IMG/VR virus record: IMGVR_UViG_3300024265_000033 | Coordinates: 32,001 to 96,000 of that record | Strand: one strand, 5' to 3' | From: a virus | Length of the DNA stretch: 64,000 nt | Shown: positions 1-51,976 of the stretch, piece after piece | Position numbering within the stretch: position 1 is the stretch's first letter | Layout of the letters: each line of letters begins with the position of its first letter | Program-made: the position numbers and the translations under genes | Notes under the pieces: model-generated | Seen by the model: the letters and a program-made list of their open reading frames with translations, nothing else | What the model was told of the DNA's origin: nothing | The model's database searches: none

Positions 1-704
1 CCGAATATCTTATCTGCCACTTCTAGGAAGGGCTCCTCATCTTTTTCTACTACAAATTCTTTCCAATTATCTTCCGTATCGTCAGTTTCCCGATTGATGT
101 ACACATAAATGATTCCATTCACTTGAGTAAATCCTTCAAGCTCTTCTATGTGGTCAAATTCCCCGTCAGCAAGATTTTGTTCGAAAAGATACACATAGGT
201 CATAGCTTGCTGAAGATGTTCGTCTTTGGGACCCGTCTCGATATAGCGGTCGTACCCTTTTTGATTTATTGACTTGTACTCGGCGAGCCACAATCCGTCC
301 TTAATGCCGTCGATTCCTTCAAGAATTAATACGTCGTCGATTTTGGCGTTCTTGATGTGGAGGTCTTTCGCGCTCACGGGAAACTCCGGATCGGGTTCTT
401 TGGTCTTCCAATGCTTTGGGATCTCGCCCTTCTTATTGCGGTAGGGCACAGAAACTCCAAGTCCTTTGAACCAAGACTTAATGAGATTGTGAAACATGTC
501 ACCTTTTTCAAAGTTTTCTATCTTTTGGGCAGTCCAACCATAGTCGGGTTTCACTCGGTTGTAACAATAATAAATCTTACGAAGACAGGAAGTGCCTAAG
601 AAGGACGGCTTCATGTTCTTATTCCAATACTTGGACTTCGGATTGTAAGCCCATTCCGATTCCAGTTTTTTGGCTATTGCGTCCTTTAGCGGTCTATTGC
701 TCAC
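1..704 (-). CDS. Cas4-like / PD-(D/E)XK exonuclease (truncated by window start; not in ORF track)
   Basis: Manual translation from GTG at 704 (AAGGA upstream): ..KPSFLGTSCLRKIYY..GDMFHNLI..AKIDD..LAEYKS..HLQQAMTY, the RecB/Cas4-family S..C.R..Y, D, ExK and QxxxY pattern; frame open to position 1. Confidence 0.75.
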   Translation of the reverse strand, partial: MSNRPLKDAIAKKLESEWAYNPKSKYWNKNMKPSFLGTSCLRKIYYCYNRVKPDYGWTAQKIENFEKGDMFHNLIKSWFKGLGVSVPYRNKKGEIPKHWKTKEPDPEFPVSAKDLHIKNAKIDDVLILEGIDGIKDGLWLAEYKSINQKGYDRYIETGPKDEHLQQAMTYVYLFEQNLADGEFDHIEELEGFTQVNGIIYVYINRETDDTEDNWKEFVVEKDEEPFLEVADKIF

Positions 705-897: not shown

Positions 898-1362
898 TTT
901 TTCGGTACTCCTGCAAAAGGATCTTTGAATTTTTCGTTTTGAATTACTTTTATTTTCTCCATGAGATTATCTACAAGGGTATCGATACCTTCGATATGGA
1001 GATCCGTATGGTATTTTAAGTTGAATCCCCGAATACCTCTGTCTACCAGTTTCAGGTTAGTTATGATGTCAGTCAGATCCCTAATTCTTATATTCTTGTA
1101 ACCGTCTGATTTGACACCTAAGCCCTTACCTTTTTTCTTTTTCATTTGACACTCTTCTTCTTCTTTTTCCCGGGGAGTATTTCTTTCAGAGTTCCCATAA
1201 TATTTCTTGATCTGCACAACCTACAAATTCCCCCGTTTCTCACATACGCCCAATTAACCCGAATATTCTTTATAGGTCCGCAGTTACTACATTCCACATA
1301 ATGGTCATCTGTCGTGAATTCTATCTTTTTCTTTGTTTTTTTCTTCTCTGTTTTCTTCTTTT

Positions 1363-1629
1363 TCACGGTGCGATTTCCTTATACTTGATATTGATATCCC
1401 CGTTAGTTTCATTTACAGAAGCACTCTTCAACTCGTAATCCGGCAAAGCATCGTCTATACAACTCAGGGCTGCTTCTAAGCCTTCTTCAATCTCGGGAGC
1501 AGGCTCCCCTTGCGGTCCCTTATCTCCTTTGTCCCCCACGTCTCCCTTGGGTCCGGGCGGGCCAGTTTCGATGTCTGAGCCACATCCTACGAGCATCAGT
1601 AAAATCAATAAAGTCCTAAAAAATCTCAT
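1363..1629 (-). CDS. collagen-repeat lipoprotein
   Basis: Signal peptide with lipobox LVGC followed by a G-X-Y run GPPGPKGDVGDKGDKGPQGEP. Confidence 0.75.
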   Translation of the reverse strand: MRFFRTLLILLMLVGCGSDIETGPPGPKGDVGDKGDKGPQGEPAPEIEEGLEAALSCIDDALPDYELKSASVNETNGDINIKYKEIAP

Positions 1630-2472
1630 CTATTCCCCCTTATTGTCTGAATCTTCCGGTTCTGTATTAATAGGAGAGTTGTCTATGACTACGTTTGGAT
1701 CTGCTTCGTCCGGAGTGGGAATATTTATAATTATTTCTTTTCCACTCGGATTTACCCCCACTCTCTTATATAGCTTTTTTATAAGATCGTTCAACGCTTT
1801 TTTGTCTACATTTTTCATGTGAGCTAGGCGTTCTTTTCTTAGATTTCCTCTTTTGGGAAGAGGTACGATTTTCTCCGCTAGTTTGGCATCTACTGCCATT
1901 TGTGCTGATATTTTCAAATCTCTGACTAAGACTTCATCCCATACCTTTTTTGGGATTAAGCTATTCTCCGCATAAATTCTATTGAGTCTTTCCGCCTCTT
2001 CTTTTTCATATTCTACGTCTATTAAATTATCATTATAGGAAGTCGAAGTTGGGGCATTATAGCCACTACGACCATTGTGCAGCATCACTGTGGCATTTTC
2101 ATATAAATATCTTCTATCACACACTGCCATAATCCAAGTAGCGGAAGAATTTATTCGACCTCCTCCATAAAAATGAAACGCACAGGTACTAGCTCTTATA
2201 ACGTCATATAGATATAACATGGCCTTGTAATCCCCCCCGCACGAGTTGAGATGAATTTCAATAACGTGCTTGGGATGATCTTTCTCCATACGTTTAATAG
2301 CGCGTACTGCCATCTCGACGGAAGCTTCCGTAAAATCATTATAACCGACTTCTGCATCATCTCCGATGTGGCCCCAATCAATAGGATGCCCGAAGAAGAT
2401 ACGTCGATTTTTTAGATCTATACCATAAACTAGATAGTTTTCTAGTTGAGTACGCTCTCTTGGAATGGCCAC
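1630..2472 (-). CDS. clpP: ClpP-like serine protease
   Basis: LKNRRIFF, IHLNSCGG, GRINSSAT (catalytic Ser), VMLHN (His) and VRDLKISAQMA (Asp) align with ClpP motifs. Confidence 0.88.
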   Translation of the reverse strand: MAIPRERTQLENYLVYGIDLKNRRIFFGHPIDWGHIGDDAEVGYNDFTEASVEMAVRAIKRMEKDHPKHVIEIHLNSCGGDYKAMLYLYDVIRASTCAFHFYGGGRINSSATWIMAVCDRRYLYENATVMLHNGRSGYNAPTSTSYNDNLIDVEYEKEEAERLNRIYAENSLIPKKVWDEVLVRDLKISAQMAVDAKLAEKIVPLPKRGNLRKERLAHMKNVDKKALNDLIKKLYKRVGVNPSGKEIIINIPTPDEADPNVVIDNSPINTEPEDSDNKGE

Positions 2473-2751
2473 TTAGGACTCCTTTTCAATGCCGATGACG
2501 TTCCGGGCTTCCATAACCAGAATTTCTTCGCTCCCTATTTGTATAGGCTCGATTTTGTTACCGAAGTAAACTTGATCCCCCACTTTTAGAGAAGAATCTT
2601 TTACCTGAGTCCCGATGAATCGGACTACTCCGAAATTATTGGAAACTTTCACATCTTTGATAAACATATCTCCGGAATTTTTTTCTTTGGCTTTTTTATC
2701 CCGGAATACGCCTACCTTATCCCAAAGGAATTCTATTTTACTTTTTTGCAT
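2473..2751 (-). CDS. groES: GroES/Cpn10-like co-chaperonin
   Basis: 92 aa; LWDKVGV, GVVRFIG, LKVGDQVYF and EEILVMEARNVIG match the Cpn10 pattern. Confidence 0.8.
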   Translation of the reverse strand: MQKSKIEFLWDKVGVFRDKKAKEKNSGDMFIKDVKVSNNFGVVRFIGTQVKDSSLKVGDQVYFGNKIEPIQIGSEEILVMEARNVIGIEKES

Positions 2752-3397
2752 CTGTGGCCTCCTTTTTTGTAGCCCCCTTCTTGCCTTTGCCCTTTACAGG
2801 AGCTTCAGCTTTAGGCGGGTCAATCAGAACTGAAATGCGATCCACAGTGATCTTGAAGTCGTAAGTGAAATCGACGTCCTCAAGTTCGCCCTTTTTATTC
2901 TTGGCCTTTGTCACGGTAGTGATTGGGATTGTTCTAGTCTCTCCCGGCTTAGCACCGTACAGGCCTTCTTCAAGTTCCTTTTGAAGTTGATAAGGTTCAT
3001 TACCTAGGCTACGCACCTTGAGAACTGATTCTTGACCGAATTCTTTTTCTTTGTCGGGCTTTCCGCAAACTGTTACTCGTAGCATATCGCCATTTTTCGC
3101 CGGAGCTTTGGACTCTTTATATCCCCAAGCTTTGTCTTCCTCATCAGCATAGAGATCTTTTAGATCCCCTTTGGTGAGTCCGAAACGCTTCATGGCAACG
3201 CCTTCCAGCACGGTGAGACGTGTATTCGGAATGGCAAAAAGCCCCATCAATTGTTGCTGGGTTTGCTGAGCATATTGCTGAAACAGATGATGGATATATG
3301 GCTTTAAGTTCTCAGTCTGAGTCTTAGATACCAATTGTTGGAAACTCTGAGGTTGATGAGCCCCTTTTCCTCTGCCTTTTCCTTTACTTTTTCCCAT
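2738..3397 (-). CDS. protein with trigger-factor-type FKBP (PPIase-like) domain
   Basis: AKNGDMLRVTVCGKPD..LG..LEEGLYGAKPGETRTIPIT..FKITVDRI resembles the trigger factor FKBP domain; no ribosome-binding signature seen. Confidence 0.7.
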   Translation of the reverse strand: MGKSKGKGRGKGAHQPQSFQQLVSKTQTENLKPYIHHLFQQYAQQTQQQLMGLFAIPNTRLTVLEGVAMKRFGLTKGDLKDLYADEEDKAWGYKESKAPAKNGDMLRVTVCGKPDKEKEFGQESVLKVRSLGNEPYQLQKELEEGLYGAKPGETRTIPITTVTKAKNKKGELEDVDFTYDFKITVDRISVLIDPPKAEAPVKGKGKKGATKKEATDAKK

Positions 3398-3406
3398 TTT
3401 TTTCTC

Positions 3407-3928
3407 CTATGCTAATTTAATGGTTTCCGGAATTACTGAATGTAGAAAACCTTCTTGTTCGACTAAAATTTCTGCGGGGGGGTTAACCATCTTTACCATC
3501 CCCGTAACTTGTTCGCCTTCAGCATTCTGAGCTGTGACTTTTTTGTTGCTGAATTGTTTGTATTTTGTAACAAACTCAATGAGTTGTTTATTGCGATCCA
3601 CTTTAGATTTGGGAGCTGGCTTGTGAACAGGCTCGGGAGCTTTTGAACCCGGCTGAATAGCGGCAGAAGGCATAGTTCCTTGCTTCTCTGGCGCGGGCAC
3701 TCCTACCCCGGCCTCTAGTTGAGCAACACGATTAGATACGAAATCAGAGAACTCGGAAACTATCTCCGTCTTATTAGCCTTATTTGACTTATCAACATCC
3801 AAGGCCTTAATCATAGTTAAAACCTTTTCATAAAGCTCTACTTTGGCTTCAAGCTTTTCTAGAGCTTCTCTCATTTCTTTGATTCTACTCATCGGAGTTC
3901 TCCTAAACTGTCTCTTATGGTAACTCAA
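3407..3928 (-). CDS. hypothetical protein (coiled-coil, Pro-rich linker)
   Basis: 173 aa ORF in operon context. Confidence 0.6.
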   Translation of the reverse strand: MSYHKRQFRRTPMSRIKEMREALEKLEAKVELYEKVLTMIKALDVDKSNKANKTEIVSEFSDFVSNRVAQLEAGVGVPAPEKQGTMPSAAIQPGSKAPEPVHKPAPKSKVDRNKQLIEFVTKYKQFSNKKVTAQNAEGEQVTGMVKMVNPPAEILVEQEGFLHSVIPETIKLA

Positions 3929-4153
3929 CTATTCGTCTTCGTCAAGTGTTTTATCCGGCCCATAGTAATACACTGGACTGGTTTTGTCAAGATATTCCTC
4001 TTGCGCGTCTGGGCGATGTGAGACGAGATGCCCGTGTATAAGACTCAAGATATCGCCCCATTGCAGATCGTGGGAATCCACCATTTCGTCTAGAACTTCT
4101 TCCAGATCCAATAAGATGTCCCCGAGCTTTCTAATCTTCTTTTTCTTCGACAT
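3929..4153 (-). CDS. hypothetical protein
   Basis: 74 aa ORF tightly packed in operon. Confidence 0.55.
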   Translation of the reverse strand: MSKKKKIRKLGDILLDLEEVLDEMVDSHDLQWGDILSLIHGHLVSHRPDAQEEYLDKTSPVYYYGPDKTLDEDE

Positions 4154-4820
4154 CTTTCTCTATCTCCAAGAAAATTGGTTTATTGGTCGGAAAATAACCT
4201 CCGTCGCAAATACTGGCATTTACGAATTGGGTATCCCCTACGAAGTGGGTACCGTAGGCTTCGTGAATGTGGCCAAAAGAATGAAAAAGTGGCTTAATAC
4301 GATGTAGGACCTCATCTGCTAGAGCCGCACACCCTACATTGCCGTCGCCACATCTGTCCAGAATGAATTGAGGAGGTCCGTGTGTGAGGAGTCCGTCCGT
4401 ATCCGTAGGGATCTTTAACCAGTGTTTTTTGATATCCATTCCCCGGTCGGCCATAAATGCCCAGTTGAAAAACGTAGGAGTGATGGGAGATCCCCAAAAC
4501 TTAAAGCCATCAATTTCTACGCCAGAATCGTTGAGATAAATAACATTCTTAGGGAGCATACTCTTGGCTAGGGCTTCGTCCTTTTCGAAAATGAAATCGT
4601 GATTACCGGGAACGAAAAGCACATGTTTGAAATGCGCGGAGACTTCATCCAGCCAATGGCAAAAATCTTCTGTTTCTCTGACAGAGCCTCGGAAAGAATA
4701 GTCCCCTGTGTACGCGAATACGTCCACCTTATCTTGCGGAAAAGGTAGATACCTATTTATTGTGGTATGCCTCTGATGGGTGTCTGAGGCGCACATGATA
4801 CTAAGTTTTTTCTTTGCCAT
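4131..4820 (-). CDS. calcineurin-like metallophosphoesterase (MPPED/239FB-like)
   Basis: SDTH, GD, GNHD, THGPP and FGHIHE motifs. Confidence 0.9.
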   Translation of the reverse strand: MAKKKLSIMCASDTHQRHTTINRYLPFPQDKVDVFAYTGDYSFRGSVRETEDFCHWLDEVSAHFKHVLFVPGNHDFIFEKDEALAKSMLPKNVIYLNDSGVEIDGFKFWGSPITPTFFNWAFMADRGMDIKKHWLKIPTDTDGLLTHGPPQFILDRCGDGNVGCAALADEVLHRIKPLFHSFGHIHEAYGTHFVGDTQFVNASICDGGYFPTNKPIFLEIEKDVEEKED

Positions 4821-5127
4821 ATTTTTCTTTCCACTTCTTTTTAAGCTTCCTTAAACTATCTCTGCAACTACTTGCAAAACCGGCCCAAAACCCTCCCTGT
4901 TCTGCATATCGACCTATGGCCCGTTCGTACCAAGAAATTCGATGTTTTAATCGCTCCTCTGCATTTTTTGTACGCTTGCTTATATGCCTGTGTCTGAAAC
5001 TAGGGTCCTGCTCATCAATTTGTTGCGCTATATCTGATCGGATATATTCTCGCTCCTTGGCTTTTCTGGTACCTTTATAGGACTTGCCTTGATTCCAGTT
5101 GCCTTTATCTCGCTTTTTGTAGCTCAC
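4801..5127 (-). CDS. hypothetical basic protein
   Basis: 108 aa ORF overlapping the next gene start. Confidence 0.55.
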   Translation of the reverse strand: MSYKKRDKGNWNQGKSYKGTRKAKEREYIRSDIAQQIDEQDPSFRHRHISKRTKNAEERLKHRISWYERAIGRYAEQGGFWAGFASSCRDSLRKLKKKWKEKYGKEKT

Positions 5128-5362
5128 TCAGTCACCATAATCCCCATTATGTTTCCCTTTTAGGAAAAGAAGATACTTTAAGCGCGTTTGCCGCTTCTTG
5201 TAAATCCCTTACCAAAATTTCCAATTCTATAGGAAGTTTATGCTTCGTTCTATAAAGCCTTAGCCCAAACTCGTGCTCTGCTTTTAATAAAGCCTGCACT
5301 AGAGGTTGTTTGTTTAATTCTTCCTTTGTCACCATAATGCCTCTTATGCTCCCTAAAAATAA

Positions 5363-5420
5363 GGTCCGCGACCAACTCACCACTCACAAAAGCCGCCCTC
5401 AACGGACGGGCAGGTGACGC
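5363..5420 (-). ncRNA. putative structured RNA (pseudoknot) or terminator downstream of tRNA-like element 1
   Basis: Minus strand: TCAC/GTGA and CTGCCC/GGGCGG stems; loop GTCCG is complementary to downstream CGGAC; CTTTT follows the inner stem. Confidence 0.4.
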
Positions 5421-5427
5421 AAAATTT

Positions 5428-5572
5428 TGGTCCGAGAGGCAGGGATTCTCACCCATGCACCGTCGCCCTCATGCAAGGAGTATCCATCGCGGCGATCAAC
5501 CCTAGGACCTCTTCTCGCTTATAGACAACACACCCCCGAGTGGGATGCGCGTATATATTCCGCCACTCTCGG
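5428..5572 (-). ncRNA. oversized tRNA-like RNA 1 (145 nt, Leu-type scaffold, encoded CCA, giant variable domain)
   Basis: Acceptor CCGAGAG/CTCTCGG + A + CCA; TG-GCG-GAATATATA-CGC D arm; T arm GCA(T)GGG-TGAGAAT-CCCTGC; about 70-nt hairpin between anticodon-like arm and T arm. Confidence 0.8.
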
Positions 5573-5578
5573 AATTAC

Positions 5579-5607
5579 AGTATCTCAAATTAGGGGGATT
5601 TTGTCAA
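5579..5607 (-). promoter_or_regulatory. sigma70-type promoter for tRNA-like RNA 1
   Basis: TTGACA-17 bp-GATACT with upstream TG, 6 nt before the acceptor stem. Confidence 0.75.
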
Positions 5608-5631
5608 GGATAAAGCTGCGTCCCCTGTTTT

Positions 5632-5764
5632 TGAAAGAGACAGGATTCGATACCTGCAAACGCTGGACCTCATATAATAACCAGCATACATTTGATCGAA
5701 GGAGCTGCTAATAGCAACTTTGTCCCTGATCGCCTAAGGCGCGTTTATCTTTCGCCACTCTTTC
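5632..5764 (-). ncRNA. oversized tRNA-like RNA 2 (133 nt, Leu-type scaffold, no encoded CCA)
   Basis: Acceptor GAAAGAG/CTCTTTC + A; TG-GCG-AAAGATAAA-CGC D arm; T arm GCAGG-TATCGAAT-CCTGT; central region with 2-3 hairpins and no canonical anticodon loop. Confidence 0.78.
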
Positions 5765-5772
5765 TTAATTGC

Positions 5773-5801
5773 AATATCTCAAATATGGAGAGTTTTGTCA
5801 A
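5773..5801 (-). promoter_or_regulatory. sigma70-type promoter for tRNA-like RNA 2
   Basis: TTGACA-17 bp-GATATT; shares TTGACAAAA..ATTTGAGATAYTGYAATT with the promoter of RNA 1. Confidence 0.75.
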
Positions 5802-5804
5802 GTA

Positions 5805-6692
5805 CTATTGAACTTTTTCTTGGATGTATTCAGCCCAAGCTTCTTGGCCTATGAAAGTGACTGAGCCTCCGGGAAGGAGTCTGAATCCCGGCTTGAGTTC
5901 GATGACTTGGGAGCATCGCTCATTGGGATGTGTGGACATGGCCGTAGGCTGCCAATCTGCCGCCTTCTTGCCGTAATTGGAACCGTTGGATAAAAGCTCT
6001 GACATTCTGTATAGTTTTGGGCTACCGTCAGAATCCATATAAAACCTGCGACAATATTTACACAGGGCTGCGTCATTTTTGACAATCCGGTAGACGTACA
6101 CCTCTTTCATATCTTTGGTCGGGTTGTCATCCACAATGCGATCCACAGAACCGAGGCTTATTGCATTGCTCATTTCGGTGTTGACAATGCGGTCCCAATT
6201 GCGGTTTGCGTCCCTAGAATAGTCTCTGAGCTGGGTCTTCAACCCCCTAACGCTTTTATCCTTGGATAAGTCGTCTAATTTCTGTAGCTTATCGAATTTG
6301 AACTGATTATTTGTGTCACGAATATAGCCCTCTATTTGTGACAAAACATTGGTCTTTTGCTTCTCGATGAGATGCTTCATGTTGGAATGTAAATGATCCT
6401 TCGAAGCCTCGTGAGTGGCCGCGCCCGGGAGGGTCTGAACCTTCCTTTGCTGTGCTTTCATCTCCCCTACATTAGTAGGAGCTGTGAGCTTGCCGTGCTC
6501 GTTCAAATAATTATGATGATAAATTGCTTCCAAGACTGACTCTTCGCCTTTGAGATTTATGCCCGCTTCAATGAGTTTTCTGCGCTGATAGTCCGTGATG
6601 CCCTTCTTTCCGAGGGTGCCTACCAAGAGCCCAGCGTGATGCTTTTCTATAACGGCCTTGATTTTTGCTATTGTTTTTTCGTCAAGTACCAT
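5805..6692 (-). CDS. head morphogenesis / minor capsid protein (Mu gpF / SPP1 gp7-like)
   Basis: RIVNTEMSNA, CKYC and HPNERC motifs; downstream of portal. Confidence 0.8.
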   Translation of the reverse strand: MVLDEKTIAKIKAVIEKHHAGLLVGTLGKKGITDYQRRKLIEAGINLKGEESVLEAIYHHNYLNEHGKLTAPTNVGEMKAQQRKVQTLPGAATHEASKDHLHSNMKHLIEKQKTNVLSQIEGYIRDTNNQFKFDKLQKLDDLSKDKSVRGLKTQLRDYSRDANRNWDRIVNTEMSNAISLGSVDRIVDDNPTKDMKEVYVYRIVKNDAALCKYCRRFYMDSDGSPKLYRMSELLSNGSNYGKKAADWQPTAMSTHPNERCSQVIELKPGFRLLPGGSVTFIGQEAWAEYIQEKVQ

Positions 6693-6901
6693 TACGCTTG
6701 CTCCAATAAGGCTTCGATCTCAGCCATCATGTCGGCCATGCGTTTACGGTAATCCGCTTTGAGGTCCGAAGCTAGATGCTCCATTACTGGATCTGGGAAT
6801 TGTTCGTTGTGAGTTCCGCCCGTGCGCTGAGCTTTAAGAGCCTTGAAGAGAAGATCTTCTGTTTCTTCTTGGGACTCGCCCTTCTCTAGAAAGATCTTCA
6901 T
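6692..6901 (-). CDS. hypothetical protein
   Basis: 69 aa ORF between portal and head morphogenesis gene. Confidence 0.6.
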   Translation of the reverse strand: MKIFLEKGESQEETEDLLFKALKAQRTGGTHNEQFPDPVMEHLASDLKADYRKRMADMMAEIEALLEQA

Positions 6902-6903
6902 CT

Positions 6904-8967
6904 TTACTCCTCATCGCCAATTTTGTACCATTCAACTTTGAGGGCTTTTTTGAGCTTGTTATCTTTGGGACCCAGTTCTTCTTGCACGTTAGAAACTTCC
7001 TCGTTAATGGACTCATCTTGAGCTTGCATTGAATCTTCTTGTCCCTGAACTTGGGCTTGTGTGGCTTCTTCTTCTTTATTGGCATCCTCTTGCATAGCGT
7101 CGCTCATGCCTTGAATGTCTTGGTTCTTTTGGTCTTCCTTTTTATTGGCATCGTCTTCAATAGAGCTTGTCATATCACTCAGTTCCTGATTACCTTGCAT
7201 TTCTTTTTGCATCTTCTTTCCATCCGGATGGAATTGACTGAACCACATGAAATACACTTGATCTAAAATCAACTCATCGCATCCCGGCCAAGGAGGTAAT
7301 CCGTCTTCTGCGCGAATCTCGTTAACGGATTTCTTGAACTTGATCTCTTCTTTTTGACGGTCGAGAGTTTCTTTGGAAGACTCTTCTCCTACGCCTACGA
7401 AGGTAAGCTTGTAGTCTGGGTCGATCTTATCCACAACATGCTTATTTAGGTACCGCTCCAAGAACTTCAGAAGTGGGATCAAGCCTTTGTTTTTAGAGGC
7501 TGTGAACTTCTCTGAAGTGTTATCTCCAGAAAGACTTCCGCCAGTTCCCCCTTCTTCTTTCATACCGAATCCAATTTCGAGGGGATCGATCTGATAGACA
7601 GAGCACATTAATTTGATGAGGTAATTCATCCAATTCGTGAATTCCATATCAGAATGATTCTGAGTAAGGGGAATCCATTTTACTTCATCCATACCAGAAA
7701 GGATGGGAGTTTGGAAAGAGTTCTTATTGCCCTTAATCATATGCTGCCATTGAACTCTGAGCGATTCTAGTTTCCTGCGATTCAGAGGAGCTTTGACGTG
7801 CAAGATACCTTTAGAAGAAAACCCCTGAGTGAAATAAGATTTGTTGTAATTCTCAGTGAAGATGTGACTGGTAATAATTGCAAGGAGAACCTCTAGTTCG
7901 GATACGGAATATCCGTTTGCATACAAATTCGTAGTAGGATTTCTCATACCCACAAACATCTCGTCGGGAGTGAAAGCTCGTATGATTTTTCCTCTAACTA
8001 CTTGAACGTATTTGTAATCATCATTTTCTAATTTTTCGTCATCAAGCTCTAGGGCGTCTCTTTGCTCTGACATGGCCCTGAGTTCTTTTTCCGGAAACAA
8101 AAGATCATAGCCGGGTTGTTGCAGATCCATCTCATTATATTTTCTGAGCGAAGGGGTAGAATATCGAATAGTCCCGCCATCTACCGGTACCCAGTGATGT
8201 GGACGATTGGCATTATCCGGAATCATTTCAGTTCCGATTTGATCGTAAGTAAGAGAATCGCGCACAATGGCTCTTAAATAAGCATCGAAATCCCAGCGTT
8301 GAGACTCCCATGGACGGTCTTCTTTCCTCCCACAATTTAGAATCATGTTCTCAATTTCTTTCACGCGGGCGCGTGTTTGCTTGTGGAGTTCTTTTTTGGC
8401 CATTCGAATCATCTCTTTTTCGGATAATTCGCCATCCTTGTCTTTATCTGCGTCGTCTTCTGCTTCGGGATTCTTATCTATTCCGTCTACGGCATCTCCA
8501 ACTTCGTCGTTGTCCTCAAGCATTTTTTTGCCAGATTCGTAGGGATCTTTACCCGCCGATTTAGGATCTTTGAGATCTCCGTATTTCTCCGGAAACATCG
8601 TTTTGAGCATTTCCTGTAATTTTTCGTCCTCATCTTTGAGCTTGATTTTGAAACCTTTGTCGTGTTGTAGCTCGGCAGGACAGGCGTGAGCTGCGACTTT
8701 GTTTTGATAGGTTTGAATGATAGTCGCAATAATGGTATTTTTGCGGCTCATATGCTGTAGGTTATCGTAGGAGAGTCTATTGGCTTTTTCCTGATACCCC
8801 ATCACTCCCGAAGAATATGTGATATCTCGGTAAATAGATTTACGATAAAAGGCGTTGTCTTCCTCTTGTGACATCTCAGACCGGGCTTTAGACACATATC
8901 GATCTAGAGCTACTTCCGTAGCCTGAGCGATTTTTTGAAAAATTGTAGGCTTTTCGTTCTTATCCAT
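6904..8967 (-). CDS. portal protein
   Basis: DSLTYDQ, PVDGGTIR, NGYSVSELE, YFTQG..KGIL, DMEF, YQIDPLEIGF and SVNEIRAEDGLPP are phage portal motifs; next to terminase. Confidence 0.92.
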   Translation of the reverse strand: MDKNEKPTIFQKIAQATEVALDRYVSKARSEMSQEEDNAFYRKSIYRDITYSSGVMGYQEKANRLSYDNLQHMSRKNTIIATIIQTYQNKVAAHACPAELQHDKGFKIKLKDEDEKLQEMLKTMFPEKYGDLKDPKSAGKDPYESGKKMLEDNDEVGDAVDGIDKNPEAEDDADKDKDGELSEKEMIRMAKKELHKQTRARVKEIENMILNCGRKEDRPWESQRWDFDAYLRAIVRDSLTYDQIGTEMIPDNANRPHHWVPVDGGTIRYSTPSLRKYNEMDLQQPGYDLLFPEKELRAMSEQRDALELDDEKLENDDYKYVQVVRGKIIRAFTPDEMFVGMRNPTTNLYANGYSVSELEVLLAIITSHIFTENYNKSYFTQGFSSKGILHVKAPLNRRKLESLRVQWQHMIKGNKNSFQTPILSGMDEVKWIPLTQNHSDMEFTNWMNYLIKLMCSVYQIDPLEIGFGMKEEGGTGGSLSGDNTSEKFTASKNKGLIPLLKFLERYLNKHVVDKIDPDYKLTFVGVGEESSKETLDRQKEEIKFKKSVNEIRAEDGLPPWPGCDELILDQVYFMWFSQFHPDGKKMQKEMQGNQELSDMTSSIEDDANKKEDQKNQDIQGMSDAMQEDANKEEEATQAQVQGQEDSMQAQDESINEEVSNVQEELGPKDNKLKKALKVEWYKIGDEE

Positions 8968-8981
8968 GTTCCCTCTACCTA

Positions 8982-9362
8982 TTATTTATCAGCCGTAACA
9001 ATATCTACATTTGCCGCCGAGCCCGATGCGTTGGAAAGCAACAAGGCGGTGACATCACCTCTTGAGTAATATACTGCAGTTTTGGTTCCTGCAGCTCTGG
9101 GTTTCAATGTAATAGAATCTCCGCTTCCGTTTAATTTGATTGAAATTTCTTGATCCGTGAGAATTAAAAGATATTCGGTATTTGCAGAAGGAAGTTCAAT
9201 GACTTGATCTACGGTTGAATCTGCTACTGAAATCTGACAGCGTTTTACGCCCGTGATGGAATCTTCCGAAGTTCGGTTTTTAACTTTTGTGGCATCTGCC
9301 GGATCATTGGTTGGCGAGGCGTTATCGTAGGCCAAAAAATCTATCAAAACATCCAATCTCAT
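8982..9362 (-). CDS. putative virion structural protein (beta-rich)
   Basis: Ala/Thr/Ser-rich 126 aa ORF between terminase and portal. Confidence 0.5.
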   Translation of the reverse strand: MRLDVLIDFLAYDNASPTNDPADATKVKNRTSEDSITGVKRCQISVADSTVDQVIELPSANTEYLLILTDQEISIKLNGSGDSITLKPRAAGTKTAVYYSRGDVTALLLSNASGSAANVDIVTADK

Positions 9363-9431: not shown

Positions 9432-11258
9432 TTAGAAGGAAAAATCCGCTCCGCCTTCATTCCCGCCTTCCGGCTCTTCGTCCTCTAATTCACTAATATG
9501 CTTCCATTCTCCTGTTTCCTTATCCTTGATCCATTCTTTTGAGTTATCTACGAACGCGGTCCCGTACATAGGCGCGAGCATTTCTGGGGTAGGGGCGTCA
9601 AAAGCTCTACCCGTGGCATCCGTCCTGATTTCCGGCCCTTCGGACCCAGCCACATCTCCCTCTGCGATTCCTAAGGCATTGAGATCGTAGGTCAAAATGA
9701 ACACTGATACGGCCAAGGCGTCAGAACAGTCATCACTTCCTCCGGGAGGGTGTCCTATGCGGACGGTGCCCGTCGCGGTCTGCTCGACCTGTAATTGCTT
9801 GATTTCGTTCGACTGGAGTTCGTAGTCAAGTAAGTCAATCCTTTGGTTGTGGATCACGTTCTTCAAGTTGAAGTAAATCTGCTTTTTGAAGGTATTCGTA
9901 AACGGCTTCTCGATCAAAGTCACACCATATTGCTCAAATATTTCCCGCAGGGGCTGGAAGGAGAATTGGTCGGCATGGACCCGGGTGATGCCATATTCCT
10001 TGCAAATATTTCGAATATATTCCGCAACTATCTTAGATTTAACAGGTTTTAATCTGGAGCCCTTCCAAGTTTTCACGACATACTGCTTCATTTTATGGCC
10101 GTCATAACCTACCAAAGTGAAGGCGAACCTATCCCCCTTAAAGGCAGCATCAATGGAGGCGCAATACACCACGTCAGAGTTACGGGGTTCCGGGACTTCG
10201 AAAGTCTTGCCTTTGATCGTACAAAGATCCACGAATTCTGGCATGATGAAATTCGAAATGGAGTCAACGAAATTGGCTCGATACTCGGCGTCAAACCCGA
10301 CCGGATCTAGAATGTATTCATCTTTGAACTCGTTTTCCATCAAGATCGTATTCCAGACCCAAGACGGAGCTTTGAGCGTCAGGTAACTTTTGGGCAGTTC
10401 GTCCTTTCGCATGAACTCATCGTAGAGAATCCCTTGCTTGATTCCCGGAGAAGAAAGCTTGATTAAAAGCCCGTGTTCCCGGAACTGGAGTAGGGCGGGT
10501 CGGGCAGCTCGAAGGATGTCTACATCCCGCTCCGCCGCGTTCTCGTCTAGGTTCCAATACGCGATCTCGTCACAAAGTAGGGCGCAAATAGCTTGTCCCC
10601 GGACGTTCTTTTTATTGGCGGTACCCACTTTGATCCGGACCAAAGAATTCACGATTTTTCCCTTTTCTATAAAAGGGATTTTGAGGTTGAAAATTGATTG
10701 GGTCTGCTTCTCCTTCTTGTCAATGAGACGGGCCAAGATAGGGGAGCTTTCCATAAAGTGTTTAATTAATTCGAGAACTTCATCTGAGAACTCTCTGGAG
10801 TGGGAGAGAATCACGACTGCCGCTTTTTTGTTCTTTTTCAGATACGGCTTCCAGTTCATTTTGATGGCACAGTAAATTGCCAGCATAGCGGAAATGGTAG
10901 TCTTTCCCCCCCGTCGTCCTACGATGAGATTGATTCTATTACGCTCGGATTGGTACTCTGGCTGATATTCTTTATCAGTCATGAACTTGAAAAGATCGAC
11001 CTCAGTCATCTGGATCTTTTCTAGGGCAAAATTTCCATCCGGATCTTTACATTCCATCCAGACGTAATGTGGAGTAATCGGGTCAAGCTCTTGTCCGAAG
11101 ACGCATTTCAGGGCCACTACCTGCGCGGGCGTGGGCTCGAAATCCATGAAAATCTTACTTTCAATAAAAAACCCTAAGGGATCTTCTTGAATTTGTTCGA
11201 GATAATCGTTAAATGCTAGGGCGAATTCCTTATCGCTCTTGAATTCAATCTTCTCCAT
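9432..11258 (-). CDS. terL: terminase large subunit
   Basis: Walker A GRRGGKTT, Walker B LLCDEIA, coupling motif LSSP, nuclease SIDAAFKGD and DDCSDALA. Confidence 0.93.
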   Translation of the reverse strand: MEKIEFKSDKEFALAFNDYLEQIQEDPLGFFIESKIFMDFEPTPAQVVALKCVFGQELDPITPHYVWMECKDPDGNFALEKIQMTEVDLFKFMTDKEYQPEYQSERNRINLIVGRRGGKTTISAMLAIYCAIKMNWKPYLKKNKKAAVVILSHSREFSDEVLELIKHFMESSPILARLIDKKEKQTQSIFNLKIPFIEKGKIVNSLVRIKVGTANKKNVRGQAICALLCDEIAYWNLDENAAERDVDILRAARPALLQFREHGLLIKLSSPGIKQGILYDEFMRKDELPKSYLTLKAPSWVWNTILMENEFKDEYILDPVGFDAEYRANFVDSISNFIMPEFVDLCTIKGKTFEVPEPRNSDVVYCASIDAAFKGDRFAFTLVGYDGHKMKQYVVKTWKGSRLKPVKSKIVAEYIRNICKEYGITRVHADQFSFQPLREIFEQYGVTLIEKPFTNTFKKQIYFNLKNVIHNQRIDLLDYELQSNEIKQLQVEQTATGTVRIGHPPGGSDDCSDALAVSVFILTYDLNALGIAEGDVAGSEGPEIRTDATGRAFDAPTPEMLAPMYGTAFVDNSKEWIKDKETGEWKHISELEDEEPEGGNEGGADFSF

Positions 11259-50266: not shown

Positions 50267-51913
50267 CTATTTATCTCGCGTATATACAATACCCCCGCCA
50301 CAGGTACTCAGGAGAGCCGCTATGGATGTGGCATTCTTGAGGGCGGTTTTAGTAACTTTGACCGGATCGAGGATTCCAGCATCGTAGGCGTTAACCATCT
50401 CTTTGTTTCGCGCATCATAAGTAAATCCTTTTTTGTTTTTAGCACACAATTTTGAGAGGATCTCCCGAGGCTCTTGACCAATATTCTCAAGGATTTGATC
50501 GAAAGGTGCTAGGAGTGCATTAGCTAAAATCTTTTGCCCTACTGTAGCACTCGCTTGGCCCCCCGCTAAAAGCTCTCTTGCGGCCCTGCAAAGCGTTATA
50601 CCGCCTCCGGGTATAACTCCGTCCGAAATAGCCGCTCTGGCAGCGTTCAGGGCATCCTCAATACGTTGATACCGTTCTTTGACTTCCATGTCAGTCTCTC
50701 CTCCAACCCCGATTTTGGCAATTCCTTGCCCAAGAGCTGCTATTCTATCCCTGAGATTCCCGGCATCATAAGGACTTTCAGCATTTTCTTGCTGAGCCTT
50801 TAACTGTTTAATTCTATCAAGAACTTCTTCTTCACTTCCGTCGCCATCGTAGAAGGTAGTCGTATATTTGGATACTACTACGCGCTCGACATATCCTATG
50901 TCATCAATCTCCACGCTTTGAAGATTGCGGCTTCCATTTCCTAGGCGTTGGCCATCGAGCATCACGGCCATATCATCCATCATAGCCGTTCTCACTGAGG
51001 ACATATGCGGAGACTTCGCGGCACAAACGGTCATACCGCCTTGTGCTCTTTGGATCAAAAGGAATTGAATAGCTTCTGGAGAAAATTCATCAGCTACAAA
51101 CAATACTGGAGGCATGGTAGGCTTCTTACCTTCTTCTACAGCCTTTGCTTTGGAATGATCTGCAATACACTGTAGTGGGGGAATCAAATCTGAATGGCTT
51201 CTAATGGCTCCATTATATAAAACAACGTAACAATTTTCAGCTTCAAATCGATCCTTGGATTCATTGTTGAAAAATCTATCTTGGGCTTCTGCGCCTCGAT
51301 TGATTTGAAATCCGTCTACAATTTTGATCTCGGTTTCTGCCGAAGAACCCTCATCTACTGTGATGACTCCTTCAGAACCTACTTCATCCATGGCCTGTCT
51401 GATAATTTTACCAATTTCGGCATCCCCATTAGCGGAGATTGTGGCTACTTCTTCGATTTTTTGAAGATCGTCCTTTATAGGACTCGTATAAGAATCTAAA
51501 ATTTCCATAGTTTGTCGGGAAGCGGCTTCAACGCTTTCTCGAACTAGTTGAGGATTCAAATCGCCTTCTTTAATAGCCGCAAAACTTTCTTTCAAAATGG
51601 CGGCTCCTAATACGATGGCAGTAGTGGTACCGTCTCCGGCAGTTTTGTCAGTCCCTTTACAGATGGCCTTGACGGCCTGAATAATGATATCAGTTTCTGG
51701 CTTAGAGTCGGAACATTCTTCCGCGACTGTTACTCCATCTTTCGTCTGGAGCGGCATCAGAGGAGATCCGTCTAAAGCCTGCCCGGTTCGCTCAAGAACT
51801 ATGGTAAGGCCGCCCGGGCCTAGAGTTCTTTTTACAATACTGGCGATCTTTTCAATGCCTTCTTGCACATGTTGAATCATCTCTTCTTTATGAACAATCT
51901 TTTTATCACGCAT
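50267..51913 (-). CDS. groEL: GroEL/Cpn60 chaperonin (548 aa from ATG at 51913)
   Basis: TLGPGG, TKDGVTVA, AGDGTTTA, ISANGD, GVITVDE, EDALNA, GVIPGGG and GILDPVKVT motifs; SD AGGAGG before 51913. Confidence 0.95.
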   Translation of the reverse strand: MRDKKIVHKEEMIQHVQEGIEKIASIVKRTLGPGGLTIVLERTGQALDGSPLMPLQTKDGVTVAEECSDSKPETDIIIQAVKAICKGTDKTAGDGTTTAIVLGAAILKESFAAIKEGDLNPQLVRESVEAASRQTMEILDSYTSPIKDDLQKIEEVATISANGDAEIGKIIRQAMDEVGSEGVITVDEGSSAETEIKIVDGFQINRGAEAQDRFFNNESKDRFEAENCYVVLYNGAIRSHSDLIPPLQCIADHSKAKAVEEGKKPTMPPVLFVADEFSPEAIQFLLIQRAQGGMTVCAAKSPHMSSVRTAMMDDMAVMLDGQRLGNGSRNLQSVEIDDIGYVERVVVSKYTTTFYDGDGSEEEVLDRIKQLKAQQENAESPYDAGNLRDRIAALGQGIAKIGVGGETDMEVKERYQRIEDALNAARAAISDGVIPGGGITLCRAARELLAGGQASATVGQKILANALLAPFDQILENIGQEPREILSKLCAKNKKGFTYDARNKEMVNAYDAGILDPVKVTKTALKNATSIAALLSTCGGGIVYTRDK

Positions 51914-51947
51914 TAAAATTCCTCCTGAGAATAAATCTTCTCTTTCT

Positions 51948-51976
51948 ATCCTACGACAGATGAGTGTGGGAGTCAA
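51948..51976 (-). promoter_or_regulatory. sigma70-type promoter of groEL
   Basis: TTGACT-17-TAGGAT. Confidence 0.65.

What the first reader, a model, noticed from the sequence alone, without database searches (positions are those of the whole stretch)
1630..3397. Phage proteostasis module: trigger-factor-like FKBP, GroES and ClpP in one operon, plus GroEL
Three abutting genes encode a trigger-factor-type FKBP domain, GroES and a ClpP with an apparently intact Ser-His-Asp triad; a full GroEL lies at 50267-51913. Established: bacteria have a tig-clpP-clpX operon, and characterised phage GroELs (phiEL, OBP, AR9) work without a co-chaperonin. A phage carrying GroEL, GroES, a TF-like domain and ClpP together is unusual. 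Inference: a self-contained fold-or-degrade system, or a way to hijack host ClpX/ClpA and the ribosome exit site.
Basis: partly seen in the sequence, partly recalled or inferred. Interest (0 to 1): 0.7.

Follow-up and report, generated by a model that had tools for sequence, protein, structure and literature searches.

The report
Phage FKBP, GroES, ClpP gene block
An uncultured 121-kb phage keeps, inside its head-gene region, three tightly joined genes for a trigger-factor-like folding helper, a GroES lid protein and a ClpP protease, and it has its own GroEL elsewhere; each part is known from phages, but this conserved block is not described.

Summary
Observation confirmed. On the minus strand, 2738-3397 encodes a 219-aa protein with a long N-terminal helix and a C-terminal FKBP fold. 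Trigger-factor PPIase domains are its nearest solved relatives. 2473-2751 encodes a Cpn10/GroES homologue with a short roof and a Phe-bearing mobile loop. 1630-2472 encodes a ClpP-family peptidase with Ser109-His132-Asp185. GroEL lies at 50267-51976.

The three genes are translationally coupled. They keep the same order in 9 distinct phage loci that share only 23-44% identity. A separate prohead protease sits beside the scaffold and capsid genes, so this ClpP is not simply the head protease. GroEL occurs in all 4 relatives that are at least 57% complete, always 23-48 kb from the only GroES-like gene. No AAA+ unfoldase is encoded.

The ClpP slot holds two different ClpP clades. The window's clade sits near a phage AAA gene in other phages.

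The protein is not a trigger factor, because it lacks the N and C domains. Viral GroES plus GroEL is already known (PMC5649160).

Most likely this is a late-gene folding and clearing set for head assembly. The boldest reading is that GroES caps ClpP, as in chloroplasts. This scan has noted the same block before in other genomes.

The parts
3407..3928 (-). First gene of the block. It encodes a protein with an N-terminal coiled coil and a small C-terminal beta-barrel-like end. The ORF is 173 aa. The likely true start is the ATG at 3892, giving 161 aa.
   Evidence: ORF. No Pfam match reaches its cut-off. A homologous gene precedes the FKBP-like gene in L005, L006, L007, L010, L012 (cut off), L015, L049 and L051. 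The Atlas holds the protein from residue 13 on, and its structure look-alikes are weak, with TM below 0.5 on the query side.
2738..3397 (-). A 219-aa protein. It has a basic N-terminal tail, a long helix (residues 19-72), a short helix (76-90), an FKBP-fold domain (95-194, nt 2816-3115) and a Lys-rich C-terminal tail.
   Evidence: The family has 159 representatives. 36 of 141 members match FKBP_C. The AF2 model has pLDDT 90.5. Foldseek and VIA-align rank FKBP and trigger factor first. The family profile's best PDB hit is trigger factor at E 1.1e-4.
2473..2751 (-). A 92-aa Cpn10/GroES homologue. The mobile loop is at about residues 18-36 (nt 2644-2700), with the tripeptide Met29-Phe30-Ile31. 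The roof hairpin is shortened.
   Evidence: Pfam and PHROG matches. The family profile hits solved GroES at 9.3e-7. The model has low confidence at residues 21-26 and 30-36. Foldseek ranks GroES first. Phe30 is invariant in 10 of 10 relatives.
1630..2472 (-). A 280-aa ClpP-family serine peptidase with Ser109, His132 and Asp185. It has a 16-residue insertion near the N-terminus and a C-terminal extension of about 75 residues.
   Evidence: PF00574 at 2e-15. Alignments to solved ClpP chains. Invariant triad. It falls in a long-ClpP clade with 100/98 support.
1363..1629 (-). An abutting 88-aa gene. It has a signal peptide and lipobox-like N-terminus followed by Gly-X-Y collagen-like triplets. A counterpart was seen only in the close relative L010.
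   Evidence: ORF. Collagen Pfam match below cut-off, 20.7 against 27.2 bits. A 79-aa counterpart in L010. The lipobox reading is from the sequence and is not tested.
50267..51976 (-). GroEL (Cpn60). The probable start is the ATG at 51913. There is no Gly-Gly-Met tail. It lies 47.5 kb from the GroES-like gene.
   Evidence: PF00118 at 6.2e-50 and phrog_5725 at 7.5e-114. Best solved relatives are bacterial group I chaperonins at E 1e-97.
6904..8967 (-). Portal protein. It marks the upstream end of the head module that holds the block.
   Evidence: PF04860 at 6e-16, and phrog_11117 and phrog_12 'portal protein'.

Best explanation
The region is a conserved, co-translated block of late genes inside the head-morphogenesis module. 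It belongs to a lineage of uncultured phages of about 100-120 kb whose capsid protein is distantly SPO1-like.

The order is: coiled-coil protein, FKBP-fold protein with a trigger-factor-like PPIase domain on a long helical stalk, GroES homologue, ClpP-family peptidase. The usual prohead protease, scaffold and major capsid genes follow a few kb downstream. A GroEL gene lies far away.

Most likely mechanism (inferred):
1. The GroES homologue is the lid for the phage's own GroEL, and perhaps for host GroEL. It helps fold the capsid protein or other late proteins, as T4 gp31 does.
2. The FKBP-fold protein holds or isomerises unfolded late proteins.
3. The ClpP-family peptidase clears misfolded or surplus assembly proteins. 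It would act alone on peptides or with a host unfoldase, since the phage has none.

Shown: gene identities, folds, the catalytic triad, coupling, conserved order, co-occurrence with GroEL, and absence of an AAA+ gene. Inferred: partners, substrates and timing.
For: Identities.

Head-module setting. Terminase and portal lie upstream. Downstream lie the prohead protease (phrog_1028, 6.1e-37) and the major head protein (phrog_752, 2.6e-58).

Coupling. There is a 14-nt overlap, an abutting TAA-GTG junction, and Shine-Dalgarno sites at each start. No terminator-like site lies on the minus strand between 3990 and 1363.

Conserved order. Of 16 locus rows with an FKBP-like hit, 15 have the GroES-like and ClpP genes directly after it. 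The 16th row (L015) ends inside the FKBP gene. These rows reduce to 9 distinct loci (ORF maps). Identities to the window are low: FKBP 31-38%, GroES 24-44%, ClpP 23-27% for the short type.

GroEL. It is present in G000, G002, G004 and G005, which are 100, 87, 57 and 100% complete. Each of these records has exactly one GroES-like gene, and PF00166 finds no other in the window's genome. In the alignment to a solved chaperonin, the helix-H/I hydrophobic positions are hydrophobic. The residue roles there are recalled, not tested.

Precedent. Viral GroES and GroES-GroEL genes, including forms with a deleted roof hairpin, are described in PMC5649160 (passages).
Against: No experiment exists, and no cultured phage carries the block. 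tblastn with two FKBP-like proteins found nothing in 50,697 phage records.

GroES and GroEL are never adjacent here, being 23-48 kb apart. The viral pairs described in PMC5649160 are operons.

The window protein itself misses FKBP_C. Several pocket positions that are aromatic in trigger factor are aliphatic or absent in the family alignment (which residues line the pocket is recalled). PPIase activity is therefore doubtful.

The four relatives without a GroEL match are only 6-19% complete, so they say nothing either way.

Promoter-like sites are no more frequent than in shuffled sequence, 17 against 16.6.
Confidence: 0.5

Rival explanations
1. The GroES-like heptamer caps the neighbouring ClpP heptamer. 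Its mobile loops, each carrying an invariant Phe, would dock into the hydrophobic clefts that AAA+ partners normally use. This would gate or silence the peptidase. The FKBP-fold protein would act as a substrate-holding adaptor. GroES would then switch between GroEL (folding) and ClpP (degradation).
For: The GroES stop and the ClpP start abut, and this gene pair is kept in all 9 distinct loci.

Both families form seven-fold rings (established knowledge).

Foldseek of the GroES model also hits 7ekq_R and 7ekq_P, the co-chaperonin chains bound to Chlamydomonas ClpP. The preprint 10.1101/2021.07.26.453741 (abstract and passages) shows Cpn11/20/23 capping ClpP through its mobile loops and slowing proteolysis.

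Phe30 is invariant in 10 of 10 loops. It aligns with the middle of E. coli GroES Ile-Val-Leu.

The genome has no AAA+ partner.

The ClpP slot was filled by two separate ClpP clades while GroES stayed in place.
Against: In the same preprint, E. coli GroES had no effect on the chloroplast ClpP, so the interaction is not general.

Adjacency may simply reflect a shared late operon.

GroEL co-occurs in every sufficiently complete relative, which the ordinary co-chaperonin role already explains.

No complex prediction could be run. The ClpP clefts were not examined.
Confidence: 0.15
2. The ClpP-family protein is a second capsid-maturation protease. It would trim portal-associated or internal head proteins. 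The FKBP-fold and GroES-like proteins would be head-assembly factors or scaffolds rather than general chaperones.
For: The block lies between the portal and capsid genes in every relative.

The ClpP also matches PHROGs named 'head maturation protease': phrog_2976 at 2.3e-10 and phrog_94 at 8.8e-10.

Many mycobacteriophage hits to the ClpP are annotated capsid maturation protease.

The long helix and basic tails of the FKBP-fold protein would suit a scaffold or an internal protein.
Against: A distinct prohead protease lies directly before the scaffold and capsid genes.

The window's ClpP belongs to a clade that elsewhere sits outside head modules, near an AAA gene, in 9 of 11 loci.

Short-clade relatives in L039 and L048 lie upstream of the terminase gene with no FKBP or GroES gene.

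The best PHROG hit is 'ATP-dependent protease' (phrog_1827, 1.3e-11).
Confidence: 0.2
3. Host take-over. The phage ClpP would dock host ClpX, ClpA or ClpC, alone or mixed into host ClpP rings. The trigger-factor-like protein would act as an adaptor that feeds chosen host or phage proteins to it. This would mirror the bacterial tig-clpP-clpX link.
For: There is no phage AAA+ gene.

The window's ClpP clade pairs with AAA genes in other phages, which suggests it can work with a partner.

Against: The phage protein lacks the trigger-factor N and C domains. The sites on trigger factor that bind ClpX were not checked here.

The Pfam match starts at profile position 30 of 182, so the N-terminal axial-loop region of ClpP is not recognisably kept.

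The host is unknown.
Confidence: 0.15

Closest known systems
T4 gp31 / viral GroES and GroES-GroEL genes of the virioplankton (PMC5649160)
   Same: A phage-encoded Cpn10-fold lid with a mobile loop. Forms with a shortened or deleted roof hairpin are known. The presumed client is the capsid protein. Some viruses encode both subunits.
   Different: Here GroES is never next to GroEL, being 23-48 kb away. It is welded to an FKBP-fold gene and a ClpP gene in the head module. The loop tripeptide has an invariant Phe.
Bacterial tig-clpP-clpX operon and trigger factor as a ClpXP adaptor (PMC7804408)
   Same: A trigger-factor-type FKBP domain is encoded just upstream of a ClpP gene.
   Different: There is no Trigger_N or Trigger_C domain and no clpX. 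A GroES gene lies between the two. The N-terminal part is a single long helix.
Chloroplast ClpP core capped by the co-chaperonin Cpn11/20/23 (PDB 7ekq; bioRxiv 10.1101/2021.07.26.453741)
   Same: A Cpn10-fold heptamer and a ClpP ring occur in one system. The GroES model matches the co-chaperonin chains of that entry.
   Different: Here only gene adjacency is known, and no physical contact has been shown. The phage proteins are single-domain homo-oligomer candidates, not Cpn20-type tandem proteins.
ClpP-family phage head-maturation proteases (phrog_94, phrog_2976, phrog_133)
   Same: A ClpP fold with a Ser-His(-Asp) active site, encoded in a head module.
   Different: It is not fused to, or adjacent to, the scaffold or capsid gene. 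A separate phrog_1028 protease holds that place. Its closest relatives sit beside AAA genes outside head modules.
Co-chaperonin-independent phage chaperonins (Pseudomonas phage EL gp146; PMC7185714, search listing only)
   Same: A phage-encoded group I chaperonin.
   Different: This lineage also keeps a GroES homologue. Its GroEL is closest to ordinary bacterial GroELs, at E 1e-97 to 1e-87.

Membership tests
Cpn10 / GroES (PF00166) | Sequence match over the family's gathering score across the whole domain | tested here: met
   22.4 bits against a cut-off of 21.1, over profile positions 2-92 of 93. A profile of 7 relatives hits solved GroES at E 9.3e-7, positions 1-86 against 1-97.
Cpn10 / GroES (PF00166) | Small beta-barrel fold | tested here: met
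   GroES chains fill the top of the Foldseek ranking at E 6.5e-5 and TM 0.69-0.73. T4 gp31 is also listed. The model's pLDDT is only 75.8, from a 7-row alignment.
Cpn10 / GroES (PF00166) | Flexible mobile loop with a hydrophobic tripeptide that binds GroEL | tested here: met
   pLDDT is below 50 at residues 21-26 and 30-36. Met-Phe-Ile aligns with GroES Ile-Val-Leu. Phe is invariant in 10 of 10. The Gly that usually precedes the tripeptide is Asp here.
Cpn10 / GroES (PF00166) | Roof beta-hairpin | tested here: not met
   The alignment to E. coli GroES has gaps of about 7 plus 1 residues at the roof. Viral GroES with roof deletions are reported (PMC5649160, figure legend), so this is a known variant.
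Cpn10 / GroES (PF00166) | Heptamer that binds GroEL and supports folding | not testable with these tools
ClpP (MEROPS S14, PF00574) | Sequence match over the gathering score | tested here: met
   57.6 bits against 20.2, E 2e-15. 38 solved ClpP sequences match at E up to 0.01.
ClpP (MEROPS S14, PF00574) | Ser-His-Asp catalytic triad | tested here: met
   Ser109, His132 and Asp185 align with the Ser of the AASM motif, the His of MIHQ and the Asp of RD in solved ClpPs. That these motifs are the catalytic ones is recalled. All three are invariant in 6 of 6.
ClpP (MEROPS S14, PF00574) | N-terminal axial loops and surface clefts for an AAA+ partner | tested here: inconclusive
   The Pfam match starts at profile position 30. 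The clefts were not examined. Clade relatives lie near AAA genes in 9 of 11 loci.
ClpP (MEROPS S14, PF00574) | A cognate Clp ATPase encoded with it | tested here: not met
   PF07724 and PF00004 give no match at E up to 0.1 in the 121-kb genome, while the controls ring in 14 of 14 genomes. The AAA profile built from relatives gives no hit in G000.
Trigger factor | N-terminal ribosome-binding domain (PF05697 Trigger_N) | tested here: not met
   No Pfam match at E up to 1. Residues 19-90 are modelled as one long and one short helix.
Trigger factor | Central FKBP-type PPIase domain | tested here: met
   Trigger-factor chains are the best profile hits in the PDB, at 1.1e-4 and 1.3e-4, with E. coli TF PPIase at 1.1e-3. 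They are the first or joint-first fold hits. Atlas leads to FKBP-like_TF score below 0.9 and are leads only.
Trigger factor | C-terminal chaperone domain (PF05698 Trigger_C) | tested here: not met
   The protein ends about 25 residues after the FKBP fold in a Lys-rich tail of low confidence.
FKBP-type PPIase (PF00254) | Sequence match to FKBP_C | tested here: inconclusive
   The window protein gives no match. 36 of 141 family members match, with a best E of 4.1e-7.
FKBP-type PPIase (PF00254) | Aromatic and hydrophobic active-site pocket | tested here: inconclusive
   In the profile alignment to the E. coli TF PPIase domain, one Phe column is kept, others are Val or Leu, and one loop is missing. 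Which residues line the pocket is recalled.
ClpP-type phage head-maturation protease | Placed directly before, or fused to, the scaffold or major capsid gene, as the only head protease | tested here: not met
   A phrog_1028 protease (6.1e-37) holds that place, followed by a 129-aa gene, a 289-aa gene and the capsid gene. L049 has the same layout.
GroEL (PF00118) | Full-length group I chaperonin | tested here: met
   PF00118 at 6.2e-50 over profile positions 1-479 of 490. Solved GroELs match at 1e-97 to 1e-87 over residues 38-559.

The most novel reading that the evidence does not exclude
The phage GroES homologue has two partners. It lids the phage GroEL. It also caps the ClpP encoded immediately after it, through its Phe-bearing mobile loops. 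This would give a seven-fold matched switch between folding and degradation of head proteins, with the trigger-factor-like FKBP protein as the substrate holder. It would be the first such co-chaperonin-ClpP complex outside chloroplasts, and the first in a virus.
Probability: 0.15. Interest if true: 0.8.

Novelty: new variant of a known kind. Interest (0 to 1): 0.55.

Why it matters
Phage-encoded GroES, GroEL and ClpP-like genes are each known. A trigger-factor-like FKBP protein family in phages appears to carry no functional annotation. It has 159 representatives at 50% identity. Only 5 of 141 match a PHROG, and that PHROG has unknown function. Its fixed, co-translated union with GroES and ClpP inside a head module was not found in print.

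The block points to a lineage of large phages that carry a private folding-and-clearing kit for capsid assembly. It also gives a clean genetic lead for testing whether co-chaperonins regulate ClpP outside chloroplasts. The replacement of one ClpP clade by another at the same slot argues that selection keeps 'a ClpP next to GroES' rather than a particular protease.

Tried and rejected
DNA-level relatives. Megablast of 1000-9000 against 50,697 phage records found nothing.

tblastn of FKBP-like proteins against the same records. The window's protein and the L012 protein both found nothing. No deposited phage in that collection shows the family at this sensitivity.

The single GroES-like sequence against the PDB gave only E 0.26-0.44 to GroES. 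It took the 7-row profile to reach 9.3e-7. Word-based homologue searches found only 4 FKBP-like and 2 GroES-like proteins.

PF00166 searched over the whole genome found nothing at E up to 1, not even the 22-bit gene itself. That search therefore only shows that no strong canonical GroES is present.

PHROGs gave no function for the FKBP family. 5 of 141 members hit phrog_26774, which has unknown function. BFVD gave only uncharacterised phage proteins.

I considered a GreA-like reading of the coiled coil plus FKBP-like domain. GreA and GreB score Z 6.0 and 5.6, against 9.6 for FKBP and trigger factor, and only on the C-terminal domain. I rejected this reading.

The promoter and terminator scan was no richer than shuffled sequence.

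Atlas searches gave scores below 0.9 for the FKBP protein and no usable hit for the 173-aa protein. They are leads only.

RNA evidence: no RNA holder was listed.

Literature. The search for bacteriophage + trigger factor + FKBP + phage genome + peptidyl-prolyl returned 16 papers. None of the 15 listed is about a phage-encoded FKBP, judged by title and abstract start. The search for phage ClpP and prohead protease returned 1 paper, which was unrelated. These two searches are the basis for 'not found in print'. Supplements are closed, so the supplementary mobile-loop alignments of PMC5649160 were not seen. They might show Phe-bearing loops.

Not done: multimer prediction, inspection of the ClpP clefts, and host assignment.

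Tree. Of 57 ClpP-profile hits plus the second ClpP, I dropped identical sequences and those of 150 aa or fewer, leaving 38 rows. The root is a midpoint root for drawing only. Several long branches were flagged, but none lies in the two clades I cite.

Contig link. P0003, P0154 and P0163 each list a 3,286-base contig. Their identities to the window are FKBP 88%, GroES 70% and ClpP 52%.
Full report
SETTING. The window is bases 32001-96000 of a single 121,065-base virus record. It has 43% G+C, and CheckV rates it 100% complete. Megablast finds no DNA-level relative among 50,697 deposited phage records. The major head protein lies outside the window, at L001:13121-14539. It is 30-33% identical to those of SPO1-like Bacillus phages, and 631 records match. 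The phage is therefore an uncultured, distant relative of that capsid type.

On the minus strand the genes run in this order: terminase-like (9432-11258), portal (6904-8967), two small genes, a 295-aa gene, an inserted stretch, and then the block.
- 3407-3928 encodes a coiled-coil protein.
- 2738-3397 encodes the 219-aa protein.
- 2473-2751 encodes the 92-aa protein.
- 1630-2472 encodes the 280-aa protein.
The 219-aa gene overlaps the next by 14 nt. The 92-aa gene's TAA stop is followed at once by the GTG start of the 280-aa gene. Each start has an AGGAG-type ribosome-binding site. GroEL is at 50267-51976, with PF00118 at 6.2e-50. The ATG at 51913 is the likelier start, and the protein has no Gly-Gly-Met tail.

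ClpP. The 280-aa protein matches PF00574 at E 2e-15. Ser109, His132 and Asp185 align with the Ser, His and Asp of solved ClpPs. That those motifs are catalytic is my recall. All three are invariant in 6 of 6 cassette ClpPs. Its best PHROG is 'ATP-dependent protease' at 1.3e-11, closely followed by several 'head maturation protease' families.

GroES. The Pfam score is marginal, at 22.4 against 21.1 bits. However, a profile of seven homologues from relatives hits solved GroES end to end at 9.3e-7. The model's best fold matches are GroES chains, followed by M. tuberculosis Cpn10 and T4 gp31. The mobile loop is present and is modelled as disordered. The roof hairpin is shortened, a variant already reported for viral GroES (PMC5649160). 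The loop tripeptide is Met-Phe-Ile, and the Phe is invariant in 10 of 10 relatives.

FKBP-FOLD PROTEIN. It has no Pfam or PHROG hit of its own. An exhaustive search found 159 representatives at E up to 1e-3, nearly all 170-250 aa long. Of 141 aligned members, 36 match FKBP_C. The AlphaFold model (pLDDT 90.5) has a 54-residue helix, a short helix and an FKBP fold at residues 95-194. Foldseek ranks T. maritima trigger factor first at 3.4e-5. VIA-align gives Z 9.6 for both FKBP13 and trigger factor. The family profile's best PDB hits are trigger factors at 1.1e-4. The protein has no Trigger_N or Trigger_C domain, so it is a trigger-factor-like PPIase domain on a helical stalk and not a trigger factor. 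Pocket positions are only partly kept (residue roles recalled), so catalysis is uncertain.

NOT SIMPLY THE PROHEAD PROTEASE. About 5 kb downstream lies a phrog_1028 'head maturation protease' (6.1e-37). A 129-aa gene, a 289-aa gene and the capsid gene follow it. Between the block and that protease lie two more genes:
- a second ClpP-family gene (PF00574 at 6e-10), whose homologues in L010 and L012 begin with a hydrophobic, signal-like N-terminus;
- a subtilase (PF00082 at 5.2e-21).

CONSERVED LINKAGE. I built profiles of the three proteins and searched them over all fetched loci. Of 16 locus rows with an FKBP-like hit, 15 have the GroES-like and ClpP genes directly after it, in the same order. 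The 16th row ends inside the FKBP gene. After removing duplicates these rows reduce to 9 distinct loci: the window, L005, L006, L007, L010, L012, L042, L049 and L051. Where the loci reach far enough, they show the same frame of terminase, portal, a gene of about 300 aa, the coiled-coil gene, the block, and a conserved 254-285-aa gene. In L049 a prohead protease, scaffold and capsid gene follow as well. By contrast, 30 of the 36 locus rows fetched with the ClpP alignment have a ClpP-family gene but no FKBP or GroES gene.

GroEL CO-OCCURRENCE. PF00118 matches in G000, G002, G004 and G005, which are 100, 87, 57 and 100% complete. It does not match in G001, G003, G006 and G007, which are only 6-19% complete. 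Each of the four larger records has exactly one GroES-like gene, 23-48 kb from GroEL.

TWO ClpP CLADES IN ONE SLOT. In a 38-row maximum-likelihood tree, the window's ClpP and L010's ClpP sit inside a clade of long ClpPs with 100/98 support. The other cassettes carry a short 190-aa clade with 100/100 support. Homologue searches show the long clade is large: 146 proteins at E up to 1e-5, with the 120 listed mostly 260-297 aa and some on contigs of 100-210 kb. In 9 of 11 long-clade loci (L017-L027), a 330-345-aa PF00004 AAA gene lies within 7 kb, and in L021 it lies directly upstream. The other two loci are cut off on one side. The window's genome has no such gene, and no PF07724 or PF00004 match. 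One ClpP type therefore replaced the other at this slot while the GroES and FKBP genes stayed. The direction of the replacement is unknown, because the tree is unrooted.

MECHANISM. My best reading, at about 0.5, is a late-expressed folding-and-clearing set for head assembly. GroES would lid the phage GroEL, following the T4 gp31 paradigm and the viral GroES-GroEL pairs of PMC5649160. The FKBP-fold protein would act as a holdase or foldase. ClpP would clear peptides or surplus proteins.

There are three rivals, and they are not mutually exclusive.
(a) GroES caps ClpP. The chloroplast co-chaperonin does this through its mobile loops and slows proteolysis (10.1101/2021.07.26.453741), and my GroES model matches those chains. 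The abutting genes, the seven-fold match, the invariant loop Phe and the missing AAA+ partner all fit this reading. Against it, E. coli GroES did not act on the chloroplast ClpP, and nothing here shows physical contact.
(b) ClpP is a second maturation protease, with the other two proteins as assembly factors.
(c) The phage captures host Clp ATPases, with the FKBP protein as adaptor. Trigger factor is a ClpXP adaptor in E. coli (PMC7804408, abstract).

KNOWN OR NEW. Viral GroES, GroEL and ClpP-like genes are all known. I found no paper on a phage trigger-factor-like FKBP family or on this block. This scan has noted the same block in at least six other genomes. Earlier follow-ups reached the same general verdict (e1-6049562, e1-6049571). 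Those notes are not independent evidence.
- the ClpP clade replacement;
- the AAA link of the long clade;
- the single-copy GroES count;
- the invariant loop Phe;
- the chloroplast precedent.

VERDICT. I class it as a new variant of a known kind, with interest 0.55.

Noticed in passing
L021:5923-6912 (+), L017:10359-11393 (-), L027:9070-10071 (-), and six further loci: Phage AAA (PF00004) proteins of 330-345 aa lie next to or near the long-clade ClpP genes. All three aligned copies end in a Met-Gly-(Ile/Met)-(Gly/Ser)-(Phe/Trp) motif close to the C-terminus. This recalls the IGF-type loops that dock Clp ATPases on ClpP. They may form a phage-encoded AAA-ClpP protease pair.
   Followed up: partly
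L001:18605-19624 (-) and L001:17889-18608 (-), i.e. 376-2111 bases before the window start: There is a second ClpP-family gene of 339 aa, followed by a 239-aa subtilase (PF00082 at 5.2e-21). Homologues of the second ClpP in L010, L012 and L039 start with a hydrophobic signal-like or membrane segment, and they form their own clade with 100/96 support.
   Followed up: partly
window 3-704 (-), continuing before the window; homologues at L005:6608-7465, L007:9388-10212, L012:1901-2665, L049:7709-8494: A conserved 254-285-aa gene follows the ClpP gene in most relatives. It has a Cys-bearing N-terminal motif. The partial window copy has no Pfam hit.
   Followed up: no
window 1363-1629 (-): An 88-aa gene abuts the ClpP stop. 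It has a lipoprotein-like signal and Gly-X-Y collagen-like triplets. It was seen only here and in L010.
   Followed up: no
L007:6805-7506 (+), also L013:246-947: One relative carries an extra 233-aa ClpP-family gene (PF00574 at 1.1e-28) directly after its portal gene and upstream of the block. It sits on a very long branch in the tree.
   Followed up: no
window 4131-4820 (-) and 5428-5801: A metallophosphoesterase gene (PF00149 at 5.1e-12) and the two tRNA-like RNA genes noted by another reader lie between the ~300-aa head gene and the block. Relatives such as L006 and L049 lack this insertion.
   Followed up: no
L049:8501-9316 and L049:10393-11091; L005:3976-4407: Relatives have extra genes inserted within the head module. 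By their sequence motifs these look like homing endonucleases, but this was not tested. The block's gene order survives such insertions.
   Followed up: no
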